Shown here: positions 310 through 41,155 of the stretch, one piece after another | Layout: each line of letters opens with the position of its first letter | Numbering within the stretch: the stretch's first letter is position 1 | Assembly (NCBI GenBank): GCA_016783555.1 | Contig: JADHWH010000004.1 | Location: 1 to 54,019, forward strand | Reading direction: 5' to 3' | DNA length: 54,019 nucleotides | Source: Candidatus Omnitrophota bacterium | Lineage (GTDB): Bacteria; Omnitrophota; Gorgyraeia; JABMRJ01 | Translations under genes and position numbers: made by a program | The notes under the pieces: model-generated | Told to the model about the DNA's origin: nothing | What the model saw: the letters and a program-made list of their open reading frames with translations, nothing else | The model's database searches: none

Positions 310-458
310 GGAAATTTTTGCGGGTGGCATTTGGCGGGCGCCCAAATTTTGCAGTGGGGGATGGGGGGATCTGGAGACCCACATAGATTACACATTGGGT
401 GTCAGTACCCCCCACAAAAAATTTGGGCTGCCAAATGACAGGACCCGCAAAAATTTCC
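310..458. repeat. Long nested inverted repeat (MITE-like)
   Basis: Perfect 16-bp ends GGAAATTTTTGCGGGT / ACCCGCAAAAATTTCC; inner arms CATTTGGC/GCCAAATG, GCCCAAATTTT/AAAATTTGGGC, TGGGGG/CCCCCA. Confidence 0.75.
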
Positions 459-2655: not shown

Positions 2656-3216
2656 ATGAACCCCGTTAGACCTACAGGTTCTAATGGGGGCAGGAGGTCT
2701 AACGGGGTGAAGATAAAAGGCAAGGTTCATAAATTCGGCAATAACGTAAATACAGACGAAATAATACCAGCGTCGTATCTAAATACCACGGATCCCGGAC
2801 AGCTGGCGAGGCATTGCATGGAAGGCATAGATAAGAATTTTTCAAAAATTGTAAAGAGGGGCGATGTTATAGTAGCCGGCAGAAATTTCGGGTGCGGGTC
2901 AAGCCGCGAGCACGCCCCATTATCGATAAAGGGGGCCGGCGTATCGTGTGTCATAGGCAGGAGTTTCGCAAGGATATTTTACAGAAACTGCATAAATATC
3001 GGACTCCCTATATTGGAGTCGAAAGAAGCGGCAAGAAGGATAAGGGTGAATGATAGACTTAAAATAGATACAAAGAGAGGTACGATAGAAGATATTACCT
3101 TAAAGAAGACATTCTATGCGCAGAAATTCCCGCCTTTTATGCAGCAGATGATTTCCGCCGGCGGGTTGATGAAATATATAAAAAAGAAGAAGAGTAAAAT
3201 CCGCCTTCGCACATGA
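2656..3216 (+). CDS. leuD: 3-isopropylmalate dehydratase small subunit; start either ATG 2656 (reads through a family B element) or regenerated GTG 2707
   Basis: NTDEIIPA, NFGCGSSREHA, FARIFYRNCINIG. Confidence 0.93.
   Translation: MNPVRPTGSNGGRRSNGVKIKGKVHKFGNNVNTDEIIPASYLNTTDPGQLARHCMEGIDKNFSKIVKRGDVIVAGRNFGCGSSREHAPLSIKGAGVSCVIGRSFARIFYRNCINIGLPILESKEAARRIRVNDRLKIDTKRGTIEDITLKKTFYAQKFPPFMQQMISAGGLMKYIKKKKSKIRLRT
2661..2707. mobile_element. Family B miniature element, copy B1 (target duplication TGAA)
   Basis: TGAA-CCCCGTTAGACCT...AGGTCTAACGGGG-TGAA inside the leuD start ATGAAG. Confidence 0.85.
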
Positions 3217-5501: not shown

Positions 5502-6236
5502 ATGCGAAATATCAAGCTCACCATTCAATATGACGGTACTAATTATTCCGGGTGGCAGTCACAGAAGAACAGCCTGGCCATCCAGGATATTGTAGAGGCA
5601 TCTCTTAAAAAGCTTACCGGTCAAAGGCATAGGCTGATAGGCGCCGCGAGGACCGACGCGGGCGTCCACGCTAAAGGGCAGGTCGCTAACTTTAAGACAG
5701 AGTCGCGCCTCCCGCTTACCAATATAAGAGACGGCCTTAACCATAATCTTCCGCCCGATATAGTTATAGAGAACGCAAGGCACGTCGCGCTCGATTTTCA
5801 TTCTCGATACGACGCCAAAAGCAAATATTATCGCTATTCGGTTTATACGCAAAAGCCGGTAAGCCCCTTTTATAAAAACTTTGTTGCGCCGGTTCCGCGC
5901 AAATTGGATTTACGGGCGATAAAGAGAGAGTCAAAAGTTCTTTTGGGGAGGCATGATTTTTCCTCATTCCAGGGGAGTAATTCAAAGAGGCTAAACCCGG
6001 TAAGGAATATTTACAGGCTTGAATTGAAAAGGAGTGGTCTCTTTTTGCATTTTGATATCGAAGCCGACGGCTTCTTATACACTATGGTCAGAACGATTAT
6101 CGGCACGCTCATAGGTGTGGGGAGGGGCCGCCTAAAAGAAGGCAGCGTAAAGAAGATTCTACGGGAGAGAAAGAGGAGCCTCGCCGGTCCCACGGCGCCG
6201 GCCAGAGGCCTATCTCTTATTAAGGTGAGGTATTAA
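5502..6236 (+). CDS. truA: tRNA pseudouridine(38-40) synthase
   Basis: YDGTNYSGWQ, RTDAGVHA, FLYTMVR, TAPARGL. Confidence 0.96.
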   Translation: MRNIKLTIQYDGTNYSGWQSQKNSLAIQDIVEASLKKLTGQRHRLIGAARTDAGVHAKGQVANFKTESRLPLTNIRDGLNHNLPPDIVIENARHVALDFHSRYDAKSKYYRYSVYTQKPVSPFYKNFVAPVPRKLDLRAIKRESKVLLGRHDFSSFQGSNSKRLNPVRNIYRLELKRSGLFLHFDIEADGFLYTMVRTIIGTLIGVGRGRLKEGSVKKILRERKRSLAGPTAPARGLSLIKVRY

Positions 6237-6401
6237 ATGAGGCCATGATTTACGAAAATCTTTGATTTTCGTAAATCATATGGCCGAATTTACCCAGCCC
6301 CTGCGCGCAGGGGCTGGGTTCAATTCGACCTTTCAGAGAAGAGAAACAGAGGAGATAGGCTTACGAAAAATCTCCGATTTTTCGTAAGCCTAGGTCTCAT
6401 T
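6236..6401. mobile_element. Family A four-way-junction element, copy A2
   Basis: AATGA|GGCC..GGCC|GAATT..AATTC|GACC..GGTC|TCATT with three long internal hairpins; lies exactly between truA TAA and rsmE ATG. Confidence 0.88.
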
Positions 6402-7142: not shown

Positions 7143-7258
7143 CCCCGTTAGACCTCAAGGAGGTTTAACGGGCGAGGAGGTCTAACGGGGTGATCCCCGT
7201 TAGACCTCTAACGGGAAGTGAAACTCACGAGCTCTAATAGATAGGAGGTCTAACGGGG
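7143..7258. mobile_element. Two tandem family B elements, B2a 7143-7190 and B2b 7195-7258 (target duplication TGAT x3)
   Basis: A-TGAT-[CCCCGTTAGACCT..AGGTCTAACGGGG]-TGAT-[..]-TGAT-AAG at the rsmE-stop/mtaB-start ATGA overlap. Confidence 0.85.
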
Positions 7259-12855: not shown

Positions 12856-12916
12856 CCCCGTTAGACCTCATAGGAGGTCGGCGGGGTGAAACGGAAGTAA
12901 TGGAGGTCTAACGGGG
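12856..12916. mobile_element. Family B miniature element, copy B3 (target duplication TGAA) in the rpoD start codon
   Basis: A-TGAA-[CCCCGTTAGACCT..AGGTCTAACGGGG]-TGAA-GAG; orphaned AAAGGAG site upstream of old ATG 12851. Confidence 0.85.
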
Positions 12917-20304: not shown

Positions 20305-20448
20305 CTTCTCGATAAAGGCAAACTGTCTGAAAGGATAGGGCGCAAAGCTACGAGCCTAAAGCGAGGTCACGCTAAAGCGTGACCTACAGCAGAAGTCACA
20401 CTAAAGTGTGACCTACAGCTGCTAAGGTAGTCGGGCTGCCGAAAGAAG
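20305..20448 (+). ncRNA. Cyclic di-GMP-I (GEMM) riboswitch with REP-like insertions in the variable loop
   Basis: GGCAAAC-TGTCT-GAAA-GGATA-GGGCGCAAAGCTACGAGCCTAA...GGTAGTCGGGCTGCCGAA; P1 CTTCTCG/CGAAAGAAG. Confidence 0.85.
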
Positions 20449-21558: not shown

Positions 21559-21635
21559 GGGGCCATAGCTCAATTGGTTAGAGCATCTGACTCATAATCA
21601 GGTGGTTCAAGGTTCAAGTCCTTGTGGCCCCACCA
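21559..21635 (+). tRNA. tRNA with CAT anticodon, most likely tRNA-Ile2 (lysidine)
   Basis: GGGGCCA/TGGCCCC acceptor stem, TCTGA-CTCATAA-TCAGG anticodon arm, GGTTCAAGTCC T arm, encoded CCA. Confidence 0.93.
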
Positions 21636-21831: not shown

Positions 21832-21908
21832 GGGCGATTAGCTCAGTCGGTTAGAGCGTGTGCCTCACATGCACAAGGTCAGTGGTTCGAGCCCACTATC
21901 GCCCACCA
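21832..21908 (+). tRNA. tRNA-Val(CAC)
   Basis: GGGCGAT/ATCGCCC acceptor stem, TGTGC-CTCACAT-GCACA anticodon arm, encoded CCA. Confidence 0.95.
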
Positions 21909-22749: not shown

Positions 22750-23175
22750 ATGCCTGAGAGACTCTTAATCTATATTGACGGTGCGGCAAGAGGTAATCCC
22801 GGTCCTGCGGGAATCGGCGTAGTTATATTGGACGAAAATAAGAATAAGGTTAAGGAATATTCAAAGCACTTAGGAAGCGCCACAAATAACACCGCCGAAT
22901 ATAACGCCCTTATATACGCCCTGCAAGAGGCGCATATGCTGGGGGTAAAGGATGTAGTGCTGCACACAGACAGCGAACTTGTAGCCAAACAGCTTAAGGG
23001 CGAATTCAGGGTCAAGAATGCAAATATAAAACCGTTATTTGAGCAGGCGGTACATCTTATAAATGGTTTTGAGAAGGTAGAAGTTAAGAGAATCGACCGT
23101 TCTTTGAATAAAGAGGCCGACAGATTAGCCAATAAGGCGATAAATCTGTCGGGACTTAAGACAAAGATTGAATGA
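22750..23175 (+). CDS. rnhA: Ribonuclease HI family protein
   Basis: IDGAARGNPGPAG, TNNTAEY, DSELV, NKEADRLAN. Confidence 0.9.
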   Translation: MPERLLIYIDGAARGNPGPAGIGVVILDENKNKVKEYSKHLGSATNNTAEYNALIYALQEAHMLGVKDVVLHTDSELVAKQLKGEFRVKNANIKPLFEQAVHLINGFEKVEVKRIDRSLNKEADRLANKAINLSGLKTKIE

Positions 23176-23356
23176 GGCCATGATTTACGAAAATCTTTGA
23201 TTTTCGTAAATCATATGGCCGAATTCAACCCTTGACATTTTTTTATGCGAGAACTTCAGAAAAATGTCAAGGGTTCAATTCGCACATTCAGAGAAGAGTT
23301 TCATAGAAGATGAAGTTACGAAAAATCAAGGATTTTTCGTAACTTCAGTGCTCATT
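23171..23356. mobile_element. Family A four-way-junction element, copy A3
   Basis: AATGA|GGCC..GGCC|GAATT..AATTC|GCAC..GTGC|TCATT; flanked by TGA/TGA; supplies the rnhA stop codon. Confidence 0.88.
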
Positions 23357-23359
23357 GAA

Positions 23360-23805
23360 GAGGGGTAGATCGGGTGGTCGCCCTTGACATTCGCGCATTG
23401 CGCGAATGTCAAGGGAGGAAAGTCCGAGCTCCATAGAGCGGCGTAGCGGGTAATGCCCGTCGGTCGAAAGGCCAGGATCAGAGCAACAGAGACAACGACT
23501 CCCCCCGTCTCGCTATTGTAAAATACGGCGAGACGGGGCAGAGGGTGAAAAGATGCAATCTCTACGCGGAGCAAGACCAAATAGGTCCCGAATCACCCTT
23601 CGACAAGCTCAGGGTGATCCTGAGCAAGGTCGCCGAAGGCGACCGCGTCGAAGGATCAGAAGCTGCTCGTTTCTACCGGTAAGACGTCGGTGTCGGGACG
23701 GGTTAGGTCGCTTGAGCCTTGTGGCAACATAAGGCCCAGATGGATGATCACTAACAGGCATCTAAGGTGCTTGCTTACAGAACTCGGCTTACAGATCTGC
23801 CCCTC
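23360..23805 (+). ncRNA. rnpB: RNase P RNA (type A-like, with insertions; P13/P14 apparently absent)
   Basis: P1 GAGGGGTAGATC/GATCTGCCCCTC, GAGGAAAGTCCGAGCTC, GCAACAGAGAC, GGAGCAAGACCAAATAGG, ACAGAACTCGGCTTAC. Confidence 0.95.
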
Positions 23806-23812
23806 ATTATTA

Positions 23813-31101: not shown

Positions 31102-32511
31102 ATGTTTAATATAAGCGATATATTAAAGGCTACAGGCGGAACACTATTATCTAAAGCTAAATCGCGTATGCCTATCCCCGGTCTATCTATCGATTCACGC
31201 AGCATAAAAAAGGGAGAGCTTTTTATAGCCATAAAAGGAGACCGTTTTGACGGCCACGATTTCATAGGCGATGCCCTGAAGAAGGGCGCCTCAGGCGCCG
31301 TCTTAAAGAGAATGCCTGCCGCGAAAATAGCCGATACGCAAATCATAATAAAGGTAAAAGAGACCACAAGGGCGCTGGGCGATATCGCCGCCTTTCACCG
31401 CAGGCGGTTCAACATCCCGGTAATCGGCATAACCGGCTCAAACGGAAAGACCACCGTGAAAGATATGGCATCTTTTATATTAGAGAAGAGATACAATGTC
31501 TTGAAGAACAATGGCACAGAGAATAATTATATAGGAGTGCCGCTTACATTGCTGAGGTTGCAAAAGAGGCATTCGACAGCCATCCTTGAGATGGGCGCAA
31601 ACCACCACGGCGAGATCGACAGGCTTACCGAGATAGTTAGGCCCACTATAGGGTTGATTACGGGTATCGGGCCATCGCACCTTGAATTCTTTAAGGATGA
31701 ACTCGGTGTACTAAAGGCAAAGACGGAGATGGTCCGCAGATTATCAAAAGAGGACTTGGTTATATTAAACGGCGATGATAAACTGCTTTCACGTATAAAG
31801 CCGCGTTGTAAAAAGATAGAGTTCGGACTTAAGGCCGGCAATGACTACAGGGCAACAGATATAAAAATAGATAAGAAGATATCCTTTCTCTTAAACGGCG
31901 TCTACCGCCTTAAGATAAAGACCCTGGGATGGCATAACCTATATAACGCCCTGGCCTCGATTGTTGTCGCGCGTCGTCTGGGAATCGATATGTCGGTGAT
32001 TAAGAATGCGCTTTTGGATTTTAAGACCCCTTCGATGCGCATGGAACTAAAGAGAGTAAAGGGTATAAATATTATAGACGACGCGTATAACTCTAATCCG
32101 CTTTCACTCAAATGGGCGATAGAGACACTTTCGCAATTCAAGACAAAAGGAAGGCGGATATTGGTATCGGGCGATATGCTGGAGCTGGGAGATAAATCCA
32201 AACTTTTTCATACCCTGGCCGGCCGCGCCGTAGCATCTTCGTCAGTAGATAGCTTTATCGGCGTAGGGAGGTTTTCGCGATTTGCCATAGACGGAGCCAG
32301 CCGCGCCGGCATGAAGAGGCAAAGCCTCTGGTCGTGTTCTACCGCAGAGGAGGCATCCGGCGTGCTGAAGAGAGTTGCAAAACGCGGAGATGCGGTATTG
32401 GTCAAGGGATCTCGCGGCATGTGTATGGAGAAGATAATAGAGAGGTTATCAAATGAGGCCATGACTTACGGAGCGCCAAAAGCGCGACGTAAGTCATGTG
32501 GCCGAATTTGA
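31102..32511 (+). CDS. murF: UDP-MurNAc-tripeptide--D-Ala-D-Ala ligase (last ~19 codons and stop come from element A4)
   Basis: ITGSNGKTTVK, DDAYNSNP, GDMLELG, VKGSRG. Confidence 0.96.
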   Translation: MFNISDILKATGGTLLSKAKSRMPIPGLSIDSRSIKKGELFIAIKGDRFDGHDFIGDALKKGASGAVLKRMPAAKIADTQIIIKVKETTRALGDIAAFHRRRFNIPVIGITGSNGKTTVKDMASFILEKRYNVLKNNGTENNYIGVPLTLLRLQKRHSTAILEMGANHHGEIDRLTEIVRPTIGLITGIGPSHLEFFKDELGVLKAKTEMVRRLSKEDLVILNGDDKLLSRIKPRCKKIEFGLKAGNDYRATDIKIDKKISFLLNGVYRLKIKTLGWHNLYNALASIVVARRLGIDMSVIKNALLDFKTPSMRMELKRVKGINIIDDAYNSNPLSLKWAIETLSQFKTKGRRILVSGDMLELGDKSKLFHTLAGRAVASSSVDSFIGVGRFSRFAIDGASRAGMKRQSLWSCSTAEEASGVLKRVAKRGDAVLVKGSRGMCMEKIIERLSNEAMTYGAPKARRKSCGRI

Positions 32512-32884
32512 CCCTTGACATTTTGCGTATGAATACAAAATATTATTTCTATATTCTAGAATGCAATGATAATAGAAAATATTATGGCTGCACAAACAAT
32601 TTAAACAGACGTCTTGAGGATCATTTGAAAGGTAAGGTGCAGGCTACTAAGTACAGACAGCCTGTAGAGTTAATTTACTATAAGGAATGTAATTCACGAC
32701 CAGAAGCGTTTAGGCTGGAAATGAAGTTTAAAAATGGAAAGACTAGAAAGAGTACCATAGATAAACTTATCAATTCATTTTCTAAGACAAAATGTCAAGG
32801 GTTTAATTCGCACCTTCATAGAAGAGAAACGGAGGAGATAGAGTTACGAAAAATCAGAGATTTTTCGTAACTCTAGTGCTCATT
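32452..32884. mobile_element. Family A four-way-junction element, copy A4, carrying a GIY-YIG nuclease gene in the arm-3 loop
   Basis: Same AATGA|GGCC|GAATT|GCAC junction; arm 3 ACCCTTGACATTTTG (32511-32525)/CAAAATGTCAAGGGT (32788-32802) encloses ~260 bp of coding DNA. Confidence 0.88.
32529..32870 (+). CDS. Small GIY-YIG nuclease (Slx1/YhbQ-UPF0213-like); alternative start ATG 32496
   Basis: YFYILEC..KYYGCTNNLNRRLEDH..G..TKYRQP..LIY..EAFRLEMKFK; visibly AT-richer than the neighbouring genes. Confidence 0.88.
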   Translation: MNTKYYFYILECNDNRKYYGCTNNLNRRLEDHLKGKVQATKYRQPVELIYYKECNSRPEAFRLEMKFKNGKTRKSTIDKLINSFSKTKCQGFNSHLHRRETEEIELRKIRDFS

Positions 32885-32886
32885 AA

Positions 32887-33972
32887 ATGTTCTACCATTT
32901 TTTATATTCGTTAAAGGATTACTGGTTCGGGTTTAACGTATTCAGATATATCACCTTCAGGGCGGCATTCTGCGGCGTGACATCATTTCTGATAAGCGTA
33001 ATGGTAGGGCCGTGGATTATAAAGACACTTAAAGGCCTTAATGTAAAGGAGAACGTCTTAAGGAGCGATGCGCCGGCTCTCTATCAATACCATAAGCATA
33101 AAGAGGGAACGCCCACTATGGGCGGTATAATCATAATCCTCTCTTTAGTTGTCTCAACACTCCTCTGGGCCGACCTTACCAATAAGTTCATAGTATTTTC
33201 GCTTTTGACCACATTATGGTTAGGGGCGATAGGTTTTATGGACGATTTCATAAAGTTAAAAGGAAAGTCTAAGGGGTTGAGGGCTGCCGCCAAACTCTTG
33301 GGGCAGGTTACAGTAGCTTTGCTGATCGGCTTAACGCTCTATCTGGATCCGGAATTTGATAATACCCTGATGTTCCCGTTTTTTAAAAATCTTATAATAA
33401 ATTTGGGGATCTTCTATATATTATTCGTGATTGTGGTCATAATCGGAGCGTCAAACGCCGTGAATATAACCGACGGCCTGGACGGTCTTGCGATCGGATG
33501 TATAATAATAATCGCTATAACATACGGCATCATGAGCTATGTTACGGGCCACTTAAAATTCAGCCAATACCTCAATATATTCTATAATCCCCATGCGGGA
33601 GAGCTCGGCGTCTTCTGCGCAGCCATATTGGGAAGCGGGCTCGGCTTCTTGTGGTTTAACGCACATCCCGCTACGGTATTTATGGGGGACACCGGTTCAC
33701 TTGCCCTCGGAGGCGCCATAGGAATGGTAGCCATATTTATTAAGAAGGAATTGCTTTTATTTCTTGTCGGCGGCATATTCGTGATAGAGACGCTTTCGGT
33801 CTTGCTGCAGGTTGCTTCGTTTAAATTAAAGAAGAAGAGGATATTCTTGATGGCCCCATTGCATCACCATTTTCAGTTAAAAGGGTGGCCGGAGAGTAAG
33901 ATAATAATAAGGTTCTGGATAGTCGCGATAGTCTTGTCGCTTCTTACGCTGGCGACGCTGAAACTAAGGTAA
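32887..33972 (+). CDS. mraY: Phospho-MurNAc-pentapeptide transferase
   Basis: KEGTPTMGG, FMDD, NAVNITDGLDGLA, FMGDTGS, APLHHHF. Confidence 0.98.
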   Translation: MFYHFLYSLKDYWFGFNVFRYITFRAAFCGVTSFLISVMVGPWIIKTLKGLNVKENVLRSDAPALYQYHKHKEGTPTMGGIIIILSLVVSTLLWADLTNKFIVFSLLTTLWLGAIGFMDDFIKLKGKSKGLRAAAKLLGQVTVALLIGLTLYLDPEFDNTLMFPFFKNLIINLGIFYILFVIVVIIGASNAVNITDGLDGLAIGCIIIIAITYGIMSYVTGHLKFSQYLNIFYNPHAGELGVFCAAILGSGLGFLWFNAHPATVFMGDTGSLALGGAIGMVAIFIKKELLLFLVGGIFVIETLSVLLQVASFKLKKKRIFLMAPLHHHFQLKGWPESKIIIRFWIVAIVLSLLTLATLKLR

Positions 33973-37646: not shown

Positions 37647-39032
37647 GTGCAGGAGATGTTAAATAAGAGCGCGAGGATACATTTTGTAGGGATAGGCGGC
37701 ATAGGCATGAGCGCCCTGGCCCAGGTGCTTTTATCCAGAGGCTATATCGTAAGCGGCTCAGATATAAACCTTAATAATCTGACGAGGCTTGTGGAATTTA
37801 AAGGCGGCAGGATATACAAGGGGCACGATAGAAAGAACGTGGGCGACGCAGAGATCGTCGTCTATTCCACGGCTGTATCCAAGGATAACCCGGAGTTGCT
37901 GGAGGCGGCGAAGCGCCATCTTAAGATATTGCACAGGGGCGAACTTCTGGGTGAATTGATGAAGGATAAGATCGGTGTTGCCGTAACCGGGGCGCACGGA
38001 AAGACTACCACCACCTCGATGCTTTCGGATATAATGATAAAGGCGCGCTTAGACCCCGTCTGCATATTAGGCGGGGAGTCGGTAAATTTAAGAAGTAATG
38101 CCTATGCGGGTAAGGGTAAGTATCTGATCGCCGAGGCGGATGAGAGCGACGGTTCTCACCTTTATCTCAACCCCAAGTTCGCCATATTGACTAATGTAGA
38201 CCGCGAACACGTCGATTACTACGAGAACATGGAGGAGCTTGTAAAAATAAATAGATCATTTTTGAAAAGGATTCATCCGGACGGCATCTTCTTCGGATTG
38301 ATCGATAACGAATTTATTAGAAAGATCCTCCTTCATTATGACCGTAGATTCGCTACATTCGGCCTGTCGAAAGAGGCCGACCTTCATGCGGCCAATATCC
38401 ATATGGAAGGAATGATTTCACGTTTTGATTGTATCTACCACAAAGAAAACCTGGGCACTATTAATATTAAGATACCCGGCATCCATAATGTGCTAAACGC
38501 CCTTGCGGCTTCTATCTTTGCGCTCCATATCGGAATAGATTTTAATGTCATAAGAGATGCGCTTTCTCTGTTTAAGTCGTCAAAACGCCGATTTGAGGTC
38601 TATCCCGATACCGACGGCATTACTCTGGTGGAAGACTACGCGCATCACCCGACGGAAATAAGCGCCGCGCTTGAAGCCTGTAGGCTGCTTAAGCCGCGCA
38701 GACTTATAACTGTCTTTCAGCCGCATCGGTATACCCGCACAAAGGCCCTGTCGAATGAATTTGGTTTATGTTTCGGTTTAAGCGACGAATTGATACTGAC
38801 GAATATATACGCAGCCAGCGAACCGCCGATAGAAGGCGTGACAGTAAAGAATATCTACGACAAAGTCCTGGAGAATAATTTTGAAAATGTGCATATAATG
38901 CCGAAAGAGAATATAGCCGATTACCTTTATAACTCTTCAGAGGACGGCGACCTTATAGCCGTATTGGGGGCGGGGGACATATCAGAGGTTGCGAAAGAGT
39001 TGGCGCAGAGGTTTAAAGATGAACCCCGTTAG
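37647..39032 (+). CDS. murC: UDP-MurNAc--L-alanine ligase
   Basis: GIGGIGMS, GAHGKTTT, EADESD, DYAHHPTE, FQPHRYTRT. Confidence 0.97.
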   Translation: MQEMLNKSARIHFVGIGGIGMSALAQVLLSRGYIVSGSDINLNNLTRLVEFKGGRIYKGHDRKNVGDAEIVVYSTAVSKDNPELLEAAKRHLKILHRGELLGELMKDKIGVAVTGAHGKTTTTSMLSDIMIKARLDPVCILGGESVNLRSNAYAGKGKYLIAEADESDGSHLYLNPKFAILTNVDREHVDYYENMEELVKINRSFLKRIHPDGIFFGLIDNEFIRKILLHYDRRFATFGLSKEADLHAANIHMEGMISRFDCIYHKENLGTINIKIPGIHNVLNALAASIFALHIGIDFNVIRDALSLFKSSKRRFEVYPDTDGITLVEDYAHHPTEISAALEACRLLKPRRLITVFQPHRYTRTKALSNEFGLCFGLSDELILTNIYAASEPPIEGVTVKNIYDKVLENNFENVHIMPKENIADYLYNSSEDGDLIAVLGAGDISEVAKELAQRFKDEPR

Positions 39033-39129
39033 ACCTTTGAAAGATGACAAGAAGGTCTAACGGGGTGAACCCCGTTAGACCTTTGAAAGATGACGAAGAG
39101 GTCTTATGGGGTCAGGAGGTCTAACGGGG
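39024..39129. mobile_element. Two tandem family B elements, B4a 39024-39065 and B4b 39070-39129 (target duplication TGAA x3)
   Basis: A-TGAA-[TIR..TIR]-TGAA-[TIR..TIR]-TGAA-AAG in the murB start; supplies the murC stop (TAG). Confidence 0.85.
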
Positions 39130-40040: not shown

Positions 40041-40981
40041 GAAGGTTTAAGAAGGTGGGCGTATTGGCAGGCGGCCCGTCCAGCGAAAGAGATATATCGC
40101 TTGCCTCCGGAGAGGCCGTGAATAACGCCTTATTAAAAGGAGGCGTTAATTCTGTCTTCATAGATGTCCGTGAGCGCGTAAGGGATGCGGTCAGGAAAAG
40201 CGGCGCCGACGCGGTATTTATAGCGCTGCACGGCGGCTTCGGAGAAGACGGGACAGTCCAGTCAATTCTGGAGAAGCTTAAGATCCCTTATACCGGTTCC
40301 GGCCCGGATGCGTCGAGGCTGGCGCTGGACAAGCTCGCCTCGCGCGAGATATTCCGCGGTATCGGCATCGATGTCCCGAAGTATAAGGTGCTAAAAAAAA
40401 ATAGAGATAGCCGGATGGACAGCCTTAATATGCCCGTTGTCGTCAAGCCTCAGAAGGAAGGTTCAAGCGTCGGCCTTTCAGTGGTATTCGATTTAAAGAG
40501 ATTAAAGAAAGCTATTGATAAGGCCTTTGATTACGGCGACAAGATATTAATAGAGGAATTCATAAGAGGGAGAGAGCTTACCGTAGGTATATTGGCCGAT
40601 AAGCCCCTTCCGGTGATAGAGATTGTTCCTGAGGGCGATCTGTATGATTATTACGCCAAATACGAAAGCCCCAAGACTAAATACCTGGTCCCGGCGCCTA
40701 TTACAGATAAAGATTTTGACAAGGCAAAAGAGATCGGATTAAAGGCGCATAAGACGCTTGGGTGCAGATACTTCTCGCGCGTCGATATGGTGCTGGGCGA
40801 CGACGGCAGAATCTATGTATTGGAGGTCAATACAATCCCCGGCCTTACGTCAAGGAGTCTCCTGCCCAAGGCGGCCTTGGTCACAGGGGTTGACTTTTGC
40901 GGATTATGTATTAAAATCTTAGAGGCATCTACTCTTAACGGCAGAAGGAGGTCAAATGAAGCCCGAACTTATGGAGCGTAA
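40007..40981 (+). CDS. ddl: D-alanine--D-alanine ligase
   Basis: GGPSSERDIS, LHGGFGEDG, EGSSVG, EVNTIPG; C-terminus comes from element A5. Confidence 0.96.
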   Translation: MAGTGNRDSKVRRFKKVGVLAGGPSSERDISLASGEAVNNALLKGGVNSVFIDVRERVRDAVRKSGADAVFIALHGGFGEDGTVQSILEKLKIPYTGSGPDASRLALDKLASREIFRGIGIDVPKYKVLKKNRDSRMDSLNMPVVVKPQKEGSSVGLSVVFDLKRLKKAIDKAFDYGDKILIEEFIRGRELTVGILADKPLPVIEIVPEGDLYDYYAKYESPKTKYLVPAPITDKDFDKAKEIGLKAHKTLGCRYFSRVDMVLGDDGRIYVLEVNTIPGLTSRSLLPKAALVTGVDFCGLCIKILEASTLNGRRRSNEARTYGA

Positions 40982-41138
40982 GCAAACATAAGTTCGTTGG
41001 CTGAATTTGACCCTTGACATTTTGCCTGTCGACTTCACCAGCAAAATGTCAAGGGTTTAATTCGACCCTTCGGGGAAGAGTTTCAGAGAAGATAGACTTA
41101 CGAAAAATCTTTGATTTTTCGTAAGCCTAGGTCTCATT
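40955..41138. mobile_element. Family A four-way-junction element, copy A5
   Basis: AATGA|AGCC..GGCT|GAATT..AATTC|GACC..GGTC|TCATT. Confidence 0.87.
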
Positions 41139-41155
41139 AAAGGAGGTAGATTTGT

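What the first reader, a model, noticed from the sequence alone, without database searches (positions are those of the whole stretch)
32452..32884. GIY-YIG nuclease encoded in the loop of a four-way-junction element: candidate autonomous member of a new mobile system
Seen: copy A4 has the same architecture as the empty copies, but the ~15-nt loop of arm 3 (between ACCCTTGACATTTTG and CAAAATGTCAAGGGT) is replaced by ~260 bp encoding an intact, AT-rich, stand-alone GIY-YIG domain. Its ATG lies 3 nt inside the loop, and the ORF reads through the right arm to stop in arm 4 (TAA 32868-32870). It sits between murF and mraY, so it would be co-transcribed with the dcw operon. Established: small Slx1/YhbQ-type GIY-YIG proteins include structure-selective nucleases that cut branched DNA (Slx1 nicks Holliday junctions); homing endonuclease genes are typically carried in peripheral loops of structured introns; REP elements are mobilised by a dedicated hairpin-recognising enzyme (RAYT). 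Inference: an autonomous/non-autonomous pair in which a structure-specific GIY-YIG enzyme, instead of a DDE or HUH transposase, recognises the folded element and spreads it.
Basis: partly seen in the sequence, partly recalled or inferred. Interest (0 to 1): 0.92.

Follow-up and report, generated by a model that had tools for sequence, protein, structure and literature searches.

The report
Hairpin-nested GIY-YIG nuclease gene, mobile repeat
A small DNA-cutting enzyme gene sits inside the hairpin loop of a repeated, inserted DNA element between two cell-wall genes of an uncultured Omnitrophota bacterium; it looks like a new variant of the recently described Ssn nuclease-plus-hairpin-repeat systems, and it gives comparative evidence that such units really move.

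Summary
Window 32452-32884 is a four-armed palindromic element (14 copies in this 1.77 Mb Omnitrophota genome). Here its arm-3 loop is replaced by a 262-nt, 32% GC insert encoding an intact single-domain GIY-YIG protein (ATG 32529, TAA 32868-70). It is not a one-off: 27 of 27 gene-bearing loci from different genomes have the same CCCTTGACATTTT arms, and 22 of 27 match all six motifs of the four-arm frame, at different genomic sites. The gene is under purifying selection. The murF-mraY junction is empty in 5 of 5 same-family genomes. Genomes with at least 4 empty arm-3 hairpins all carry the gene (6 of 6).

The enzyme's partner appears to be the arm-3 palindrome, not the junction as such. Paralogous GIY-YIG genes in this genome sit in loops of other stand-alone hairpin families that make 4-nt target duplications (73 of 97; 14 of 21).

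The concept is not new. Chenal et al. 2025 (PMC11893778) showed that single-domain GIY-YIG "Ssn" proteins are hairpin-specific ssDNA nucleases flanked by their multicopy repeats, and noted the likeness to insertion sequences. New here are the gene-in-loop layout, the composite element at gene junctions, deletion derivatives and target duplications. Nuclease activity and mobilisation remain untested.

The parts
32452..32884 (+). Gene-bearing copy of the four-arm composite palindromic element, inserted between murF and mraY
   Evidence: Absent from the murF-mraY junction of 5 of 5 same-family genomes.
32452..32457 (+). 5' half of the closing stem (AATGAG), pairs with 32879-32884
   Evidence: AATGA/TCATT pairs kept in 8-10 of 10 copies.
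32457..32503 (+). Arm 2 hairpin (GGCC..ACTTACG-GA-stem/loop-GA-CGTAAGT..GGCC)
   Evidence: I3; pairs at columns 6-19 / 35-50, many with compensatory changes. This hairpin type occurs on its own in many relatives (matches to query 13-74).
32503..32525 (+). Left half of arm 3 (CGAATTTG + ACCCTTGACATTTTG)
   Evidence: I1. The same arm lies 17-18 nt before the ATG in 20 of 22 related loci.
32526..32787 (+). 262-nt insert in place of the 14-18-nt arm-3 loop; 31.7% GC
32529..32870 (+). ORF of 113 aa. Residues 1-86 form the single GIY-YIG domain. Residues about 87-113 are a tail encoded by the right half of arm 3 and by arm 4.
   Evidence: dN/dS 0.07-0.33.
32788..32810 (+). Right half of arm 3 (CAAAATGTCAAGGGT + TTAATTCG); translated as KCQGFNS
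   Evidence: The KCQG(F/L)(N/S)S tail is present in 15 of 15 close database homologues P0002-P0016.
32811..32878 (+). Arm 4: GCAC..GTGC base, a purine-rich asymmetric internal loop, and a perfect hairpin TTACGAAAAATC-AGA-GATTTTTCGTAA
   Evidence: I2, (covariation at columns 113-116 / 179-182 and 142-146 / 174-178).
32879..32884 (+). 3' half of the closing stem (CTCATT); the mraY ATG follows 2 nt later (32887)
31102..32511 (+). murF, now extended by about 20 codons that are element sequence (stop TGA 32509-11)
   Evidence: Relatives stop at TAA just before the mraY ATG.
32887..33972 (+). mraY; its former Shine-Dalgarno region (GAGAGG) now lies about 440 nt upstream, left of the element
6236..6401 (+). 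Gene-less copy whose arm 3 is replaced by the CCCAGCCCCTGCGCGCAGGGGCTGGG mini-hairpin
23171..23356 (+). Gene-less copy, ending 5 nt before the RNase P RNA gene
40955..41138 (+). Gene-less copy between a ddl-like gene and the next gene

Best explanation
Window 32452-32884 is the gene-bearing ('autonomous-looking') member of a family of about 185-nt composite palindromic elements. These elements lie at gene junctions of Omnitrophota genomes.

The gene encodes a stand-alone GIY-YIG nuclease of the YhbQ/UPF0213-Ssn kind. I think it most likely acts like the characterised Ssn enzymes: it binds a hairpin formed by one strand of its own flanking repeat and cuts single-stranded DNA next to it. The repeat is the arm-3 palindrome CCCTTGACATTTTG..CAAAATGTCAAGGG, possibly together with the arm-2/arm-4 hairpins. 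Gene plus palindrome would then form a selfish module. The module is copied or converted into the arm-3 slot of other copies of the composite element and travels with it to new junctions. It then decays by internal deletion into the gene-less copies.

Shown here:
- the anatomy of the element;
- conservation of the gene-in-hairpin layout across genomes;
- purifying selection on the gene;
- the lineage-specific insertion;
- deletion derivatives;
- the association between copy number and gene presence;
- real 4-nt target duplications for two sister hairpin families whose gene-bearing members carry paralogous GIY-YIG genes.

Inferred:
- that this protein is a hairpin-specific ssDNA nuclease;
- that it, rather than a host or another enzyme, causes the spread;
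- the strand-transfer or repair step, since a hydrolytic nuclease needs host ligation, replication or recombination to complete an insertion.
For: 1. Domain intact. PF01541 E 7e-15. Invariant Y6, Y8, Y18, Y19, G20, R28, H32, E64 in 22 aligned sequences. AF2 model pLDDT 84.7 with a GIY-YIG fold; best PDB matches are UPF0213 BH0048, Slx1 and UvrC-N. Profile against PDB sequences: UPF0213 EF2693 at 3.8e-13 and BH0048 at 7.1e-13.

2. Selection. pN<pS in 253 of 253 pairs. dN/dS is 0.07-0.33 in the 15 lowest-dS pairs printed, out of 18 pairs with dS<1.5. Median pS is 0.79, yet the 13-15-nt arms stay near-invariant.

3. Conserved layout.
- An exact inverted repeat of at least 12 nt spans the gene in 20 of 22 close loci. 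Random placements in the same loci reach at most 8-12.
- Among 58 distant homologues only 1 exceeds 11 nt.
- 27 of 27 loci have both arms and 22 of 27 pass all six frame motifs.
- The neighbouring genes differ between loci.

4. Insertion. The murF-mraY junction is empty in 5 of 5 same-family genomes. Four further sites lack the element in 5 of 5, 3 of 5, 3 of 5 and 3 of 4 relatives. The insert is 31.7% GC against 45%.

5. Co-occurrence in 251 genomes of the class.
- Empty hairpin present in 12 genomes; gene present in 11; both present in 6.
- All 6 genomes with at least 4 empty copies (10, 5, 7, 20, 4, 5) have the gene.
- The 6 genomes with 1-3 copies lack it, and one of them (G045) holds a 25-codon remnant.

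6. Decay series. The G045 loop keeps the first 25 codons. The G063 loops keep about 11 nt of the 5' end and about 10 nt of the 3' end of the gene.

7. Sister systems in the same genome. The GIY-YIG gene at C76 lies in a CCCCGTTAGACCTCC hairpin flanked by TGAA on both sides. The one at C9 lies in a CCCAGCCCCTCC hairpin flanked by TTCA. The one at C46 lies between NTS-like GTCATTCCCGCGAAAGCGGGAATC repeats. Perfect 4-nt direct repeats flank 73 of 97 and 14 of 21 hairpins of the first two families, with 15 different repeat words; shifting the boundary gives 0-1.

8. Precedent. PMC11893778 reports that single-domain GIY-YIG Ssn proteins cut ssDNA next to their hairpin repeat, in a strand-specific way. 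It reports that 42% of homologues are flanked on both sides by the repeat, and that 81% of genomes with more than 200 repeats have the gene.
Against: - No biochemical data exist for this protein.
- Assignment to the Ssn clade (CDD cd10448) could not be tested. Identity to the NTS-flanked paralogue is only 36%.
- Arm 3 does not match the published NTS/SRM consensus.
- In Ssn systems the gene is flanked by two complete hairpins. Here it is flanked by the two halves of one hairpin.
- No unambiguous target duplication was found for the four-arm element (direct repeat of at least 8 nt in 3 of 31 copies) or for arm 3 in its slot (0 of 16). The way it inserts is therefore unknown.
- 5 of 11 gene-positive genomes show no empty hairpin with the exact pattern, and 6 hairpin-positive genomes show no gene. 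These are incomplete MAGs and the pattern is strict.
- Only 1 of the 14 copies in this genome holds the gene.
- The ORF has no Shine-Dalgarno sequence of its own.
- Contigs from two other studies show only the filled allele, so no polymorphism was seen.
- Compensatory changes in a DNA palindrome can arise without any selection on a fold.
Confidence: 0.55

Rival explanations
1. The enzyme recognises the folded four-way junction as a branched structure (Slx1-like) and mobilises the whole ~185-nt element as a unit. Empty copies are its non-autonomous partners.
For: - 22 of 27 gene-bearing loci pass all six four-arm frame motifs, and only L027 clearly lacks the left half.
- The whole element is the insertion at murF-mraY.
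- The four-way fold is supported by 18 covarying pairs.
- The fold of the protein resembles the Slx1 nuclease domain (TMq 0.46-0.54).
Against: - Paralogous GIY-YIG genes in the same genome sit in plain hairpins with no junction, and those hairpins transpose on their own.
- In G063 arm 3 is 0.94 identical between copies while the two sides of the frame are 0.52 and 0.61 (6 parsed of 7 fetched, out of 20 copies).
- Arm 3 can be swapped for other hairpin families in the same slot (window 6236-6401; C30, C68, C78).
- Pieces of the frame occur separately in relatives.
- There is no RING/PHD domain or Slx4-like partner.
- Characterised relatives (Ssn) cut ssDNA next to a hairpin, not junctions (PMC11893778).
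Confidence: 0.15
2. Passenger homing gene. The GIY-YIG ORF is a homing-endonuclease-type selfish gene that only invades the arm-3 loop by cleavage and gene conversion. The composite element and the hairpins are moved by something else (host replication slippage or an unidentified transposase).
For: - The gene always sits at the same position in the loop, 17-18 nt from the start of the left arm.
- Arm 3 plus its loop is homogenised among diverged frames in G063.
- Flanking frame homology of about 60-90 nt on each side could support conversion.
- GIY-YIG homing enzymes are well known (recalled).
Against: - There is no DNA-binding domain such as the ones I-TevI-type enzymes use (single domain).
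- Only 1 of 14 copies is occupied in this genome.
- High copy numbers of empty hairpins occur only where the gene is present. A pure passenger does not predict that.
- Sister hairpin families with a gene in the loop make 4-nt target duplications at new sites. That is transposition, not homing.
Confidence: 0.15
3. Domesticated host function. As proposed for Neisseria SsnA/NTS, the nuclease and its repeats now serve the cell (control of incoming or replicating ssDNA, recombination). The repeats are no longer mobile, and the gene-in-hairpin position is a relic.
For: - There is strong purifying selection.
- The gene sits in an essential operon without breaking it.
- PMC11893778 shows an effect on transformation and raises domestication as a hypothesis.
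Against: - Distribution is patchy: 11 of 251 genomes, in 10 different families, and none of 5 same-family relatives.
- The composition is foreign.
- Each genome has it at a different site.
- Decayed remnants exist.
This pattern fits a selfish, horizontally moving unit.
Confidence: 0.1
4. The four-arm element is mainly a structured RNA within operon transcripts (processing, stability or translational coupling), and the ORF is an incidental insertion.
For: - Where the flanks could be scored, all 14 copies lie on the strand of the flanking genes (12 of 14 on each side).
- They lie between a stop codon and the next start, often followed by GAAGGAGG.
- G-U pairs are kept on the sense strand only (columns 57/106, 73/90, 118/129).
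Against: - No Rfam family matches at gathering level, and a permissive search gives only weak hairpin-type miRNA hits.
- Arms are swapped wholesale.
- The elements are absent from orthologous junctions of relatives.
- Strand bias is equally expected for a strand-specific ssDNA enzyme or for an oriented target such as T[AG]AATG.
- This reading does not explain the conserved nuclease gene.
Confidence: 0.05

Closest known systems
Ssn nucleases with NTS/SRM hairpin repeats (Chenal et al., Nat Commun 2025, PMC11893778; abstract, first part of Results, section 10, Discussion and a term search read)
   Same: - A single-domain GIY-YIG protein of about 90-100 aa.
- The gene is bracketed by inverted copies of a hairpin-forming repeat that is multicopy in the same genome.
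- Each enzyme subfamily has its own repeat sequence.
- Repeat abundance is tied to presence of the gene.
- One paralogue in this very genome (contig C46) is flanked by NTS-like GTCATTCCCGCGAAAGCGGGAATC.
   Different: - The repeat here (CCCTTGACATTTTG) does not fit the NTS/SRM consensus.
- The gene lies inside the loop of one hairpin rather than between two complete hairpins.
- The hairpin is a module of a larger four-arm element at gene junctions.
- The phylum is Omnitrophota.
- cd10448 membership and ssDNA cleavage were not tested here.
- The paper shows no target duplications or insertion polymorphism (0 occurrences of 'target site'). Its supplementary tables could not be read.
REP/REPIN-RAYT and BIME mosaics (recalled; also cited in the Discussion of PMC11893778)
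   Same: - A single gene flanked by inverted palindromic repeats.
- Many gene-less hairpin copies lie in intergenic regions.
- Hairpins combine into composite mosaics.
- The logic of a hairpin-recognising enzyme.
   Different: The enzyme there is an HUH Y1 transposase that makes covalent intermediates. Here it is a hydrolytic GIY-YIG nuclease. REPs are not reported to make 4-nt target duplications (recalled).
MITEs and their parent insertion sequences
   Same: - Terminal inverted repeats.
- Short gene-less deletion derivatives amplified in the genome.
- Target-site duplications in the sister hairpin families.
   Different: There is no DDE, serine or tyrosine transposase. The 'transposase' candidate is an 86-aa nuclease domain, and the element is only 45-65 nt (hairpins) or about 185 nt (composite).
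GIY-YIG homing endonucleases (I-TevI type) in intron loops
   Same: A selfish nuclease ORF sits in the loop of a structured element. The composition is foreign and AT-rich.
   Different: There is no intron or ribozyme and no separate DNA-binding domain. The target is a multicopy palindrome rather than a unique allele.
UPF0213/YhbQ proteins (PDB 1ywl, 1zg2) and the Slx1 nuclease domain
   Same: These are the best sequence and fold matches.
   Different: The UPF0213 structures carry no known function. Slx1 needs a zinc-finger domain and Slx4, and neither is present here.

Membership tests
GIY-YIG nuclease superfamily (Pfam PF01541) | Profile match above the curated threshold | tested here: met
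   55.5 bits against a cut-off of 22.6, E 7.1e-15, residues 5-73.
GIY-YIG nuclease superfamily (Pfam PF01541) | Conserved GIY / YIG tyrosines, Arg, and metal-binding Glu (the roles of these residues are recalled, not from a call) | tested here: met
   Y6, Y8, Y18, Y19, G20, R28, H32 and E64 are invariant in 22 sequences.
GIY-YIG nuclease superfamily (Pfam PF01541) | Three-stranded sheet plus helices fold | tested here: met
   AF2 pLDDT 84.7, with strands 5-12, 17-22 and 45-54. Foldseek top hits are 1zg2, Slx1 (7cq3), 1ywl and UvrC-N (1yd6).
Ssn family (PMC11893778) | Single-domain protein of about 94 aa with no extra DNA-binding domain | tested here: met
   86-aa core plus a 27-aa tail encoded by element sequence. 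Apart from PF01541, Pfam lists only the T5orf172 domain (PF10544, E 8e-4) over the same residues.
Ssn family (PMC11893778) | Assignment to CDD cd10448 / the Ssn clade of the GIY-YIG tree | not testable with these tools
   No CDD search is available. Only indirect evidence: 36% identity to the NTS-flanked paralogue C46 and 32-33% to the UPF0213 structures.
Ssn family (PMC11893778) | Gene flanked on both sides by a hairpin-forming repeat that is multicopy in the genome | tested here: met
   27 of 27 loci have both arms. There are 10 empty arm-3 hairpins in this genome. Arm-2/arm-4 hairpins also bracket the gene. The layout differs: the flanks are the two halves of one hairpin.
Ssn family (PMC11893778) | Repeat matches the NTS/SRM consensus CGTCATTCCCGCGMAVGCGGGAATCYRG | tested here: not met
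   Arm 3 is CCCTTGACATTTTG. Only the paralogue on C46 has NTS-like flanks. The degenerate SRM search pattern is in supplements or methods that I did not see.
Ssn family (PMC11893778) | Strand- and site-specific cleavage of ssDNA, with no activity on dsDNA or RNA | not testable with these tools
   This needs a biochemical assay.
Insertion sequence / MITE pair | Target-site duplication at the ends | tested here: inconclusive
   Four-arm element: a direct repeat of at least 8 nt in 3 of 31 copies, otherwise 3-7 nt overlapping the element ends. Arm 3 in its slot: 0 of 16. Sister hairpin families: 73 of 97 and 14 of 21 perfect 4-nt repeats.
Insertion sequence / MITE pair | Presence/absence at orthologous sites | tested here: met
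   The element is absent from the murF-mraY junction in 5 of 5 relatives. It is absent in 5 of 5, 3 of 5, 3 of 5 and 3 of 4 relatives at four other sites.
Insertion sequence / MITE pair | A recognised transposase (DDE, HUH, Ser or Tyr) | tested here: not met
   The only ORF is the GIY-YIG domain.
GIY-YIG homing endonuclease (I-TevI type) | Nuclease domain joined to a DNA-binding domain; host intron or free-standing phage gene | tested here: not met
   Single domain. NCBIfam group I intron endonuclease TIGR01453 gives no hit for this protein. No intron or ribozyme family was found.
Slx1 | C-terminal zinc-finger domain and an Slx4 partner | tested here: not met
   The 113-aa protein has no such domain. 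The resemblance is limited to the nuclease core.
Any Rfam RNA family | Covariance-model match at the gathering score | tested here: not met
   None on the elements. The permissive search gives only miRNA-hairpin hits of at most 29.5 bits against cut-offs of 55-144.

The most novel reading that the evidence does not exclude
Small Ssn-type GIY-YIG nucleases are the actual mobilising enzymes of a previously unclassified class of bacterial hairpin transposons.

- The minimal elements are 45-65-nt hairpins, or about 185-nt composites.
- Their loop can carry the 86-aa nuclease gene.
- They insert with 4-nt target duplications, preferentially on start codons and stop/start junctions.
- The insertion regenerates a start codon (A|TGAA .. 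G|TGAA gives GTG) and translationally couples the nuclease ORF to the host gene, as at dnaE.
- They therefore spread through essential operons with almost no cost.
Probability: 0.35. Interest if true: 0.85.

Novelty: new variant of a known kind. Interest (0 to 1): 0.64.

Why it matters
The Ssn paper (2025) showed what these tiny GIY-YIG proteins do in vitro, but left open whether the gene-plus-repeat units are mobile and how the repeats multiply. This genome and its relatives supply what comparative genomics can give on that question:

- gene-bearing and deletion-derived copies;
- empty orthologous sites;
- real target duplications in sister families;
- copy number tied to presence of the gene;
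- each nuclease subfamily paired with its own palindrome.

If the nuclease drives the spread, it would be a transposition-like system built on a hydrolytic 86-aa nuclease and host repair. That has no place in current insertion-sequence classifications.

It also adds new enzyme/hairpin pairs to a family of interest as site-specific ssDNA cutters. And it explains a large share of the intergenic repeats, and odd gene-start and C-terminal extensions, in Omnitrophota MAGs, which affects their annotation.

Tried and rejected
- Rfam. No family covers the element at gathering level. The permissive search gave only weak miRNA-hairpin hits. I therefore dropped the ribozyme / known-RNA reading.

- Reads. 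The look-up of sequencing runs listed no RNA holder, so nothing can be said on expression. Laying contigs of four runs showed the filled murF allele with 0 differences over 31900-32811 in two other studies (X5, X6). The many 'joints' that skip about 260 nt carry other loop letters. They are other empty hairpins, not an empty allele of this site, so neither an excised nor a circular form nor a polymorphism could be shown. Contigs cannot show rare variants.

- Target duplication of the four-arm element. I tried 4-, 5-, 6- and 8-nt models by eye and by script. The flanks share 4-8 nt with the element ends (AAATG at mraY, AATGAG at rsmE, ATTGAA at aroC and RNase P, GGAGATGT and AAGGAGGT at two sites), but no single rule fits. 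This is left unresolved.

- Own promoter. One sigma-70-like match uses the TTGACA of arm 3 (32515-32544), against 1.8 expected by chance, and it would start transcription downstream of the ATG. Not pursued.

- Frame bias of the CCCCGTTAGA hairpins on start codons. Length = 1 mod 3 in 31 of 61, and 21 of 61 mini-ORFs stop exactly in the right repeat. This is a modest enrichment and is only noted.

- NCBIfam gave no family for the protein.

- Literature. No paper describing a bacterial GIY-YIG gene inside a hairpin transposon was found with these term sets:
  - 'GIY-YIG, hairpin, repeat, intergenic, mobile';
  - 'Omnitrophota, GIY-YIG';
  - 'GIY-YIG, palindromic, MITE';
  - 'YhbQ, GIY-YIG' (0 papers);
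  - 'UPF0213';
  - 'GIY-YIG, inverted repeats, target site duplication, bacteria'.
  For these six searches I saw listings and abstract starts only. One search found PMC11893778, of which I read the outline with abstract, part 1 of 4 of Results, section 10, the Discussion and a term search. Its supplementary tables (lists of homologues and repeats) were not read and may already include this subfamily or phylum.

- Not run: homodimer prediction, protein-atlas search and the representative-library search. They would not change the reading.

Full report
**What is there.**

The window is contig C53 of a 1.77 Mb, 78-contig genome with 45% GC. Names attached to close homologues place it in Candidatus Omnitrophota.

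- A closing stem AATGAG/CTCATT encloses three arms. Arm 3 has the exact arms ACCCTTGACATTTTG (32511-25) and CAAAATGTCAAGGGT (32788-802).
- The arm-3 loop is 262 nt and 31.7% GC, against 45.3% for the window.
- The loop carries an ORF (32529-32870, 113 aa) whose first 86 residues are a GIY-YIG domain (PF01541, E 7.1e-15).
- The last ~27 residues are translated from the right half of arm 3 and from arm 4. The stop is the TAA inside the arm-4 hairpin.

**The element family.**

- The arm-4 hairpin pattern finds 14 copies in the genome, four of them in the window.
- In 12 of 14 copies the 600 nt upstream form one open frame on the element's strand (199-200 codons, against 63-133 on the other strand). 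The same holds downstream in 12 of 14. The exceptions are a contig end, a copy followed by the RNase P RNA gene on the same strand, and one short ORF. All copies therefore point the same way as their neighbouring genes and sit between a stop and the next start.
- RNAalifold on 10 of the 14 copies (the four with large inserts left out) gives the four-way fold. It has 66 pairs, 18 of them with compensatory double changes, and several G-U pairs that exist only on the sense strand.
- No Rfam family matches.
- The arms are modular. Arm 3 is replaced by other hairpins in copies at window 6236-6401 and on C30, C68 and C78. In 23 of 61 related genomes (own genome included), pieces corresponding to arm 2 alone, arms 2+3, or the arm-4 part match separately.

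**Is the gene-in-arm-3 layout a one-off? No.**

- The word-indexed protein search scored 23 candidates, all at E<=0.001. Of those 23, 15 (P0002-P0016, 59-75% identical) end in ..KCQG(F/L)(N/S)S, and several start with ..LTLDIL.M. These are the translated arm-3 arms.
- The scan of GTDB species genomes returned 80 loci. In 20 of the 22 close loci (L013-L034), an exact inverted repeat of 12-24 nt beginning ..CCCTTGACATTTT spans the gene. Its left arm lies 14-25 nt (17-18 nt in most) before the ATG.
- Random placements in the same loci gave at most 8-12 nt. Among the 58 distant homologues (CPR, Gammaproteobacteria and others, at most 51% identity; L042 and L091 matched only in part) only one, a Dependentiae locus with a different 35-nt repeat, exceeded 11 nt.
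- With four further loci from the G-handle genomes and the window itself, 27 of 27 loci have both arms. 22 of 27 pass all six regex checks for the frame. Four of the five failures are sequence variants or a contig end; only L027 lacks the left half.
- The downstream genes differ from locus to locus.

**Is the gene functional?**

- Y6, Y8, Y18, Y19, G20, R28, H32 and E64 are invariant in 22 sequences.
- Across 23 coding sequences, pN<pS in 253 of 253 pairs. dN/dS is 0.07-0.33 in the 15 lowest-dS pairs printed, of 18 with dS<1.5. Synonymous sites are mostly saturated (median pS 0.79). The arms have hardly changed over the same divergence, so they are constrained too.
- The AlphaFold model (pLDDT 84.7) has the GIY-YIG fold. 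The arm-encoded tail is a lower-confidence helix (68-71).
- The best structural matches are UPF0213 BH0048 and EF2693, Slx1 and the UvrC N-domain (sequence-profile hits).

**Is it an insertion?**

- All five genomes of the same family have an empty murF-mraY junction, for example ..gagaggttataacgct|ATGTTC and ..ggggttata|ATGTTC.
- The insertion removed the murF stop codon. murF now runs 20 codons into the element and stops at 32509-11, which is 17 nt before the nuclease ATG. The nuclease stops 16 nt before the mraY ATG. The old Shine-Dalgarno region of mraY is left upstream of the element. The three ORFs may therefore be translationally chained; this is inference.
- At four other sites occupied in this genome, relatives lack the element:
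  - 5 of 5 at truA-rsmE (two of them have unrelated inserts);
  - 3 of 5 at aroC (one relative has a related partial element with another arm 3);
  - 3 of 5 at topA;
  - 3 of 4 at lysC.
- I could not define a target duplication for the composite element (and the junction comparisons above).

**Gene and repeat go together.**

In 251 genomes sampled from the class:
- the empty arm-3 hairpin (exact 13-nt arms, loop 6-36) occurs in 12 genomes;
- the nuclease subfamily (E<=1e-18) occurs in 11;
- six genomes have both, and these are exactly the six with at least 4 empty copies (10, 5, 7, 20, 4, 5);
- the six genomes with hairpins but no gene have 1-3 copies, and one of them (G045) holds a hairpin whose 130-nt loop still encodes the first 25 codons;
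- five genomes have the gene but no empty copy under this strict pattern, and in one of them the gene has an internal TAG stop.

None of the five same-family relatives has either the hairpin or the gene. These are incomplete MAGs and related genomes are not independent, so I read this as a strong hint, not a test.

In G063 the empty copies share a loop made of about 11 nt resembling the 5' end and about 10 nt matching the 3' end of the gene. The loop occurs in both orientations within the frame. Their arm-3 module is 0.94 identical (median). The arm-2 side of the frame is 0.52 identical and the arm-4 side 0.61 (6 copies parsed, of 7 fetched, out of 20). In this genome the contrast is small (0.83 against 0.72 and 0.80; 7 parsed of 10).

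Arm 3 thus behaves as a unit of its own within the composite element.

**The wider picture in this genome.**

tblastn finds four other small GIY-YIG genes, mutually 32-44% identical.
- The one on C76 sits in the loop of a CCCCGTTAGACCTCC hairpin.
- The one on C9 sits in a CCCAGCCCCTCC hairpin.
- The one on C46 sits between inverted GTCATTCCCGCGAAAGCGGGAATC repeats.
- The one on C10 lies among other repeats.

The first two hairpin families are abundant as empty copies and are true insertion elements. Of 97 CCCCGTTAGA hairpins, 73 are flanked by a perfect 4-nt direct repeat of 15 different kinds (TGAA 28, TTCA 18, and others). Shifting the boundary by 1-3 nt gives 0-1 such repeats. 14 of 21 CCCAGCCC hairpins have the same feature.

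52 of the 73 overlap an ATG. The C76 gene-bearing hairpin sits exactly on the dnaE start. The nuclease ORF begins at the old ATG, reads through the left arm, and stops at a TGA overlapping a regenerated GTG start of dnaE.

Small GIY-YIG genes are nearly universal in this class (55 of 61 genomes). Of the 17 fetched loci from other subfamilies, 5 are spanned by exact repeats of 13-15 nt, with the same repeat word recurring for the same protein subfamily.

**What is known.**

Chenal et al. 2025 (PMC11893778) showed that single-domain GIY-YIG proteins of CDD family cd10448 ("Ssn") bind a hairpin repeat (NTS/SRM) in single-stranded DNA and cut beside it. The cutting is strand-specific, with no activity on dsDNA or RNA.
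- 42% of homologues are flanked by the repeat on both sides.
- 81% of genomes with more than 200 repeats carry the gene.
- The authors say the NTS-ssnA-NTS architecture is identical to that of insertion sequences and comparable to REP/RAYT.
- They propose domestication and show no transposition.

The C46 paralogue here is a textbook case of their system. The protein of the finding is a relative with a different repeat and a different layout.

The specific claim that the four-way junction is the recognised structure is not supported.

**Verdict.**

This is a real, conserved and almost certainly functional nuclease gene nested in its own palindrome, inside a composite mobile element inserted into the dcw operon.

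It is best filed as a new variant of the Ssn/hairpin-repeat systems. Membership in the Ssn clade and the enzymatic activity are untested.

Its added value is the comparative evidence for mobility, which the published work lacks: empty sites, deletion derivatives, target duplications in sister families, and insertion on start codons.

Noticed in passing
window 2662-2706, 7144-7257, 12857-12915, 39025-39128 (and 97 loci genome-wide): CCCCGTTAGACCTC..GAGGTCTAACGGGG hairpin elements are 22-122 nt long, plus one of 271 nt that carries a GIY-YIG gene. 73 of 97 have perfect 4-nt target duplications of 15 kinds. They are often in tandem, and 52 of 73 overlap an ATG, so that A|TGAA..G|TGAA leaves a GTG start for the host gene.
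   Followed up: partly
L127 (G000:C76:21000-24300), locus coordinates 1514-1792: A paralogous GIY-YIG ORF in a hairpin inserted exactly on the dnaE start codon. It uses the old ATG, translates the left arm, and its TGA stop overlaps the regenerated GTG start of dnaE (NF005298, E 3e-244 from residue 4).
   Followed up: partly
L129 (G000:C46:7600-11000), around locus coordinates 1490-1900: A GIY-YIG gene flanked by inverted GTCATTCCCGCGAAAGCGGGAATC repeats. These closely match the Neisseria NTS consensus printed in PMC11893778, so a canonical Ssn-type unit is present in an Omnitrophota genome.
   Followed up: partly
window 23381-23415, inside the RNase P RNA gene (23362-23807): A hairpin near the 5' end of RNase P RNA (CCCTTGACATTCGCGC..GCGCGAATGTCAAGGG) has the same 11-nt arms as arm 3. 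A four-arm element copy ends 5 nt before the gene. Three 25-nt mini-hairpins CCCTTGACATC..GATGTCAAGGG lie on C16, C44 and C76.
   Followed up: no
window 23597-23617 (inside RNase P RNA); also next to the C10 GIY-YIG gene and inside arms of related elements (L019, L023, L163, L165, L167): A further widespread repeat (CCTTCGACAAGCTCAGGGTGA.. / ..CCTGAGCGAAGTCGAAGG type) is inserted in various hairpins and in a variable region of RNase P RNA. A 35-nt version flanks a GIY-YIG gene in a Dependentiae MAG (L035).
   Followed up: no
window 32452-32511: murF has a 20-residue C-terminal extension encoded by element sequence, because the insertion removed its stop codon. The murF profile ends at residue 449 of 469.
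   Followed up: yes
G000 contig C30:64816-65018 (L120): A four-arm copy whose arm 3 is a different hairpin (CCCAGCACTAATTTTAT..). Its 32-nt loop begins with ATG AAA TAT TGG GTC TAT GTA TTA AAA, which looks like the first codons of yet another GIY-YIG gene (MKYWVYVLK). It is probably a decayed gene-bearing hairpin.
   Followed up: no
window 341-427 and five other loci; 16 further loci genome-wide: Two more repeat families: GGCGGGCG-CCCAAATTT..AAATTTGGG-CTGCCAAA (6 loci) and CACCCTA[AT]CCCTCTCCCC..GGGGAGAGGGAAT (16 entries).
   Followed up: no
window 20307-20443, 21559-21632, 21832-21905: A c-di-GMP-I riboswitch and two tRNA genes. These are ordinary and unrelated to the finding.
   Followed up: no
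right flank of the elements, e.g. window 41139-41146; L013-L034: Most copies are followed directly by [GA]AAGGAG(G) and then the next gene's start. In a few copies the same AAGGAGGT also lies just left of the element (window 40945-40952; L023, L032). Either the element targets or duplicates Shine-Dalgarno sequences, or it carries one.
   Followed up: partly
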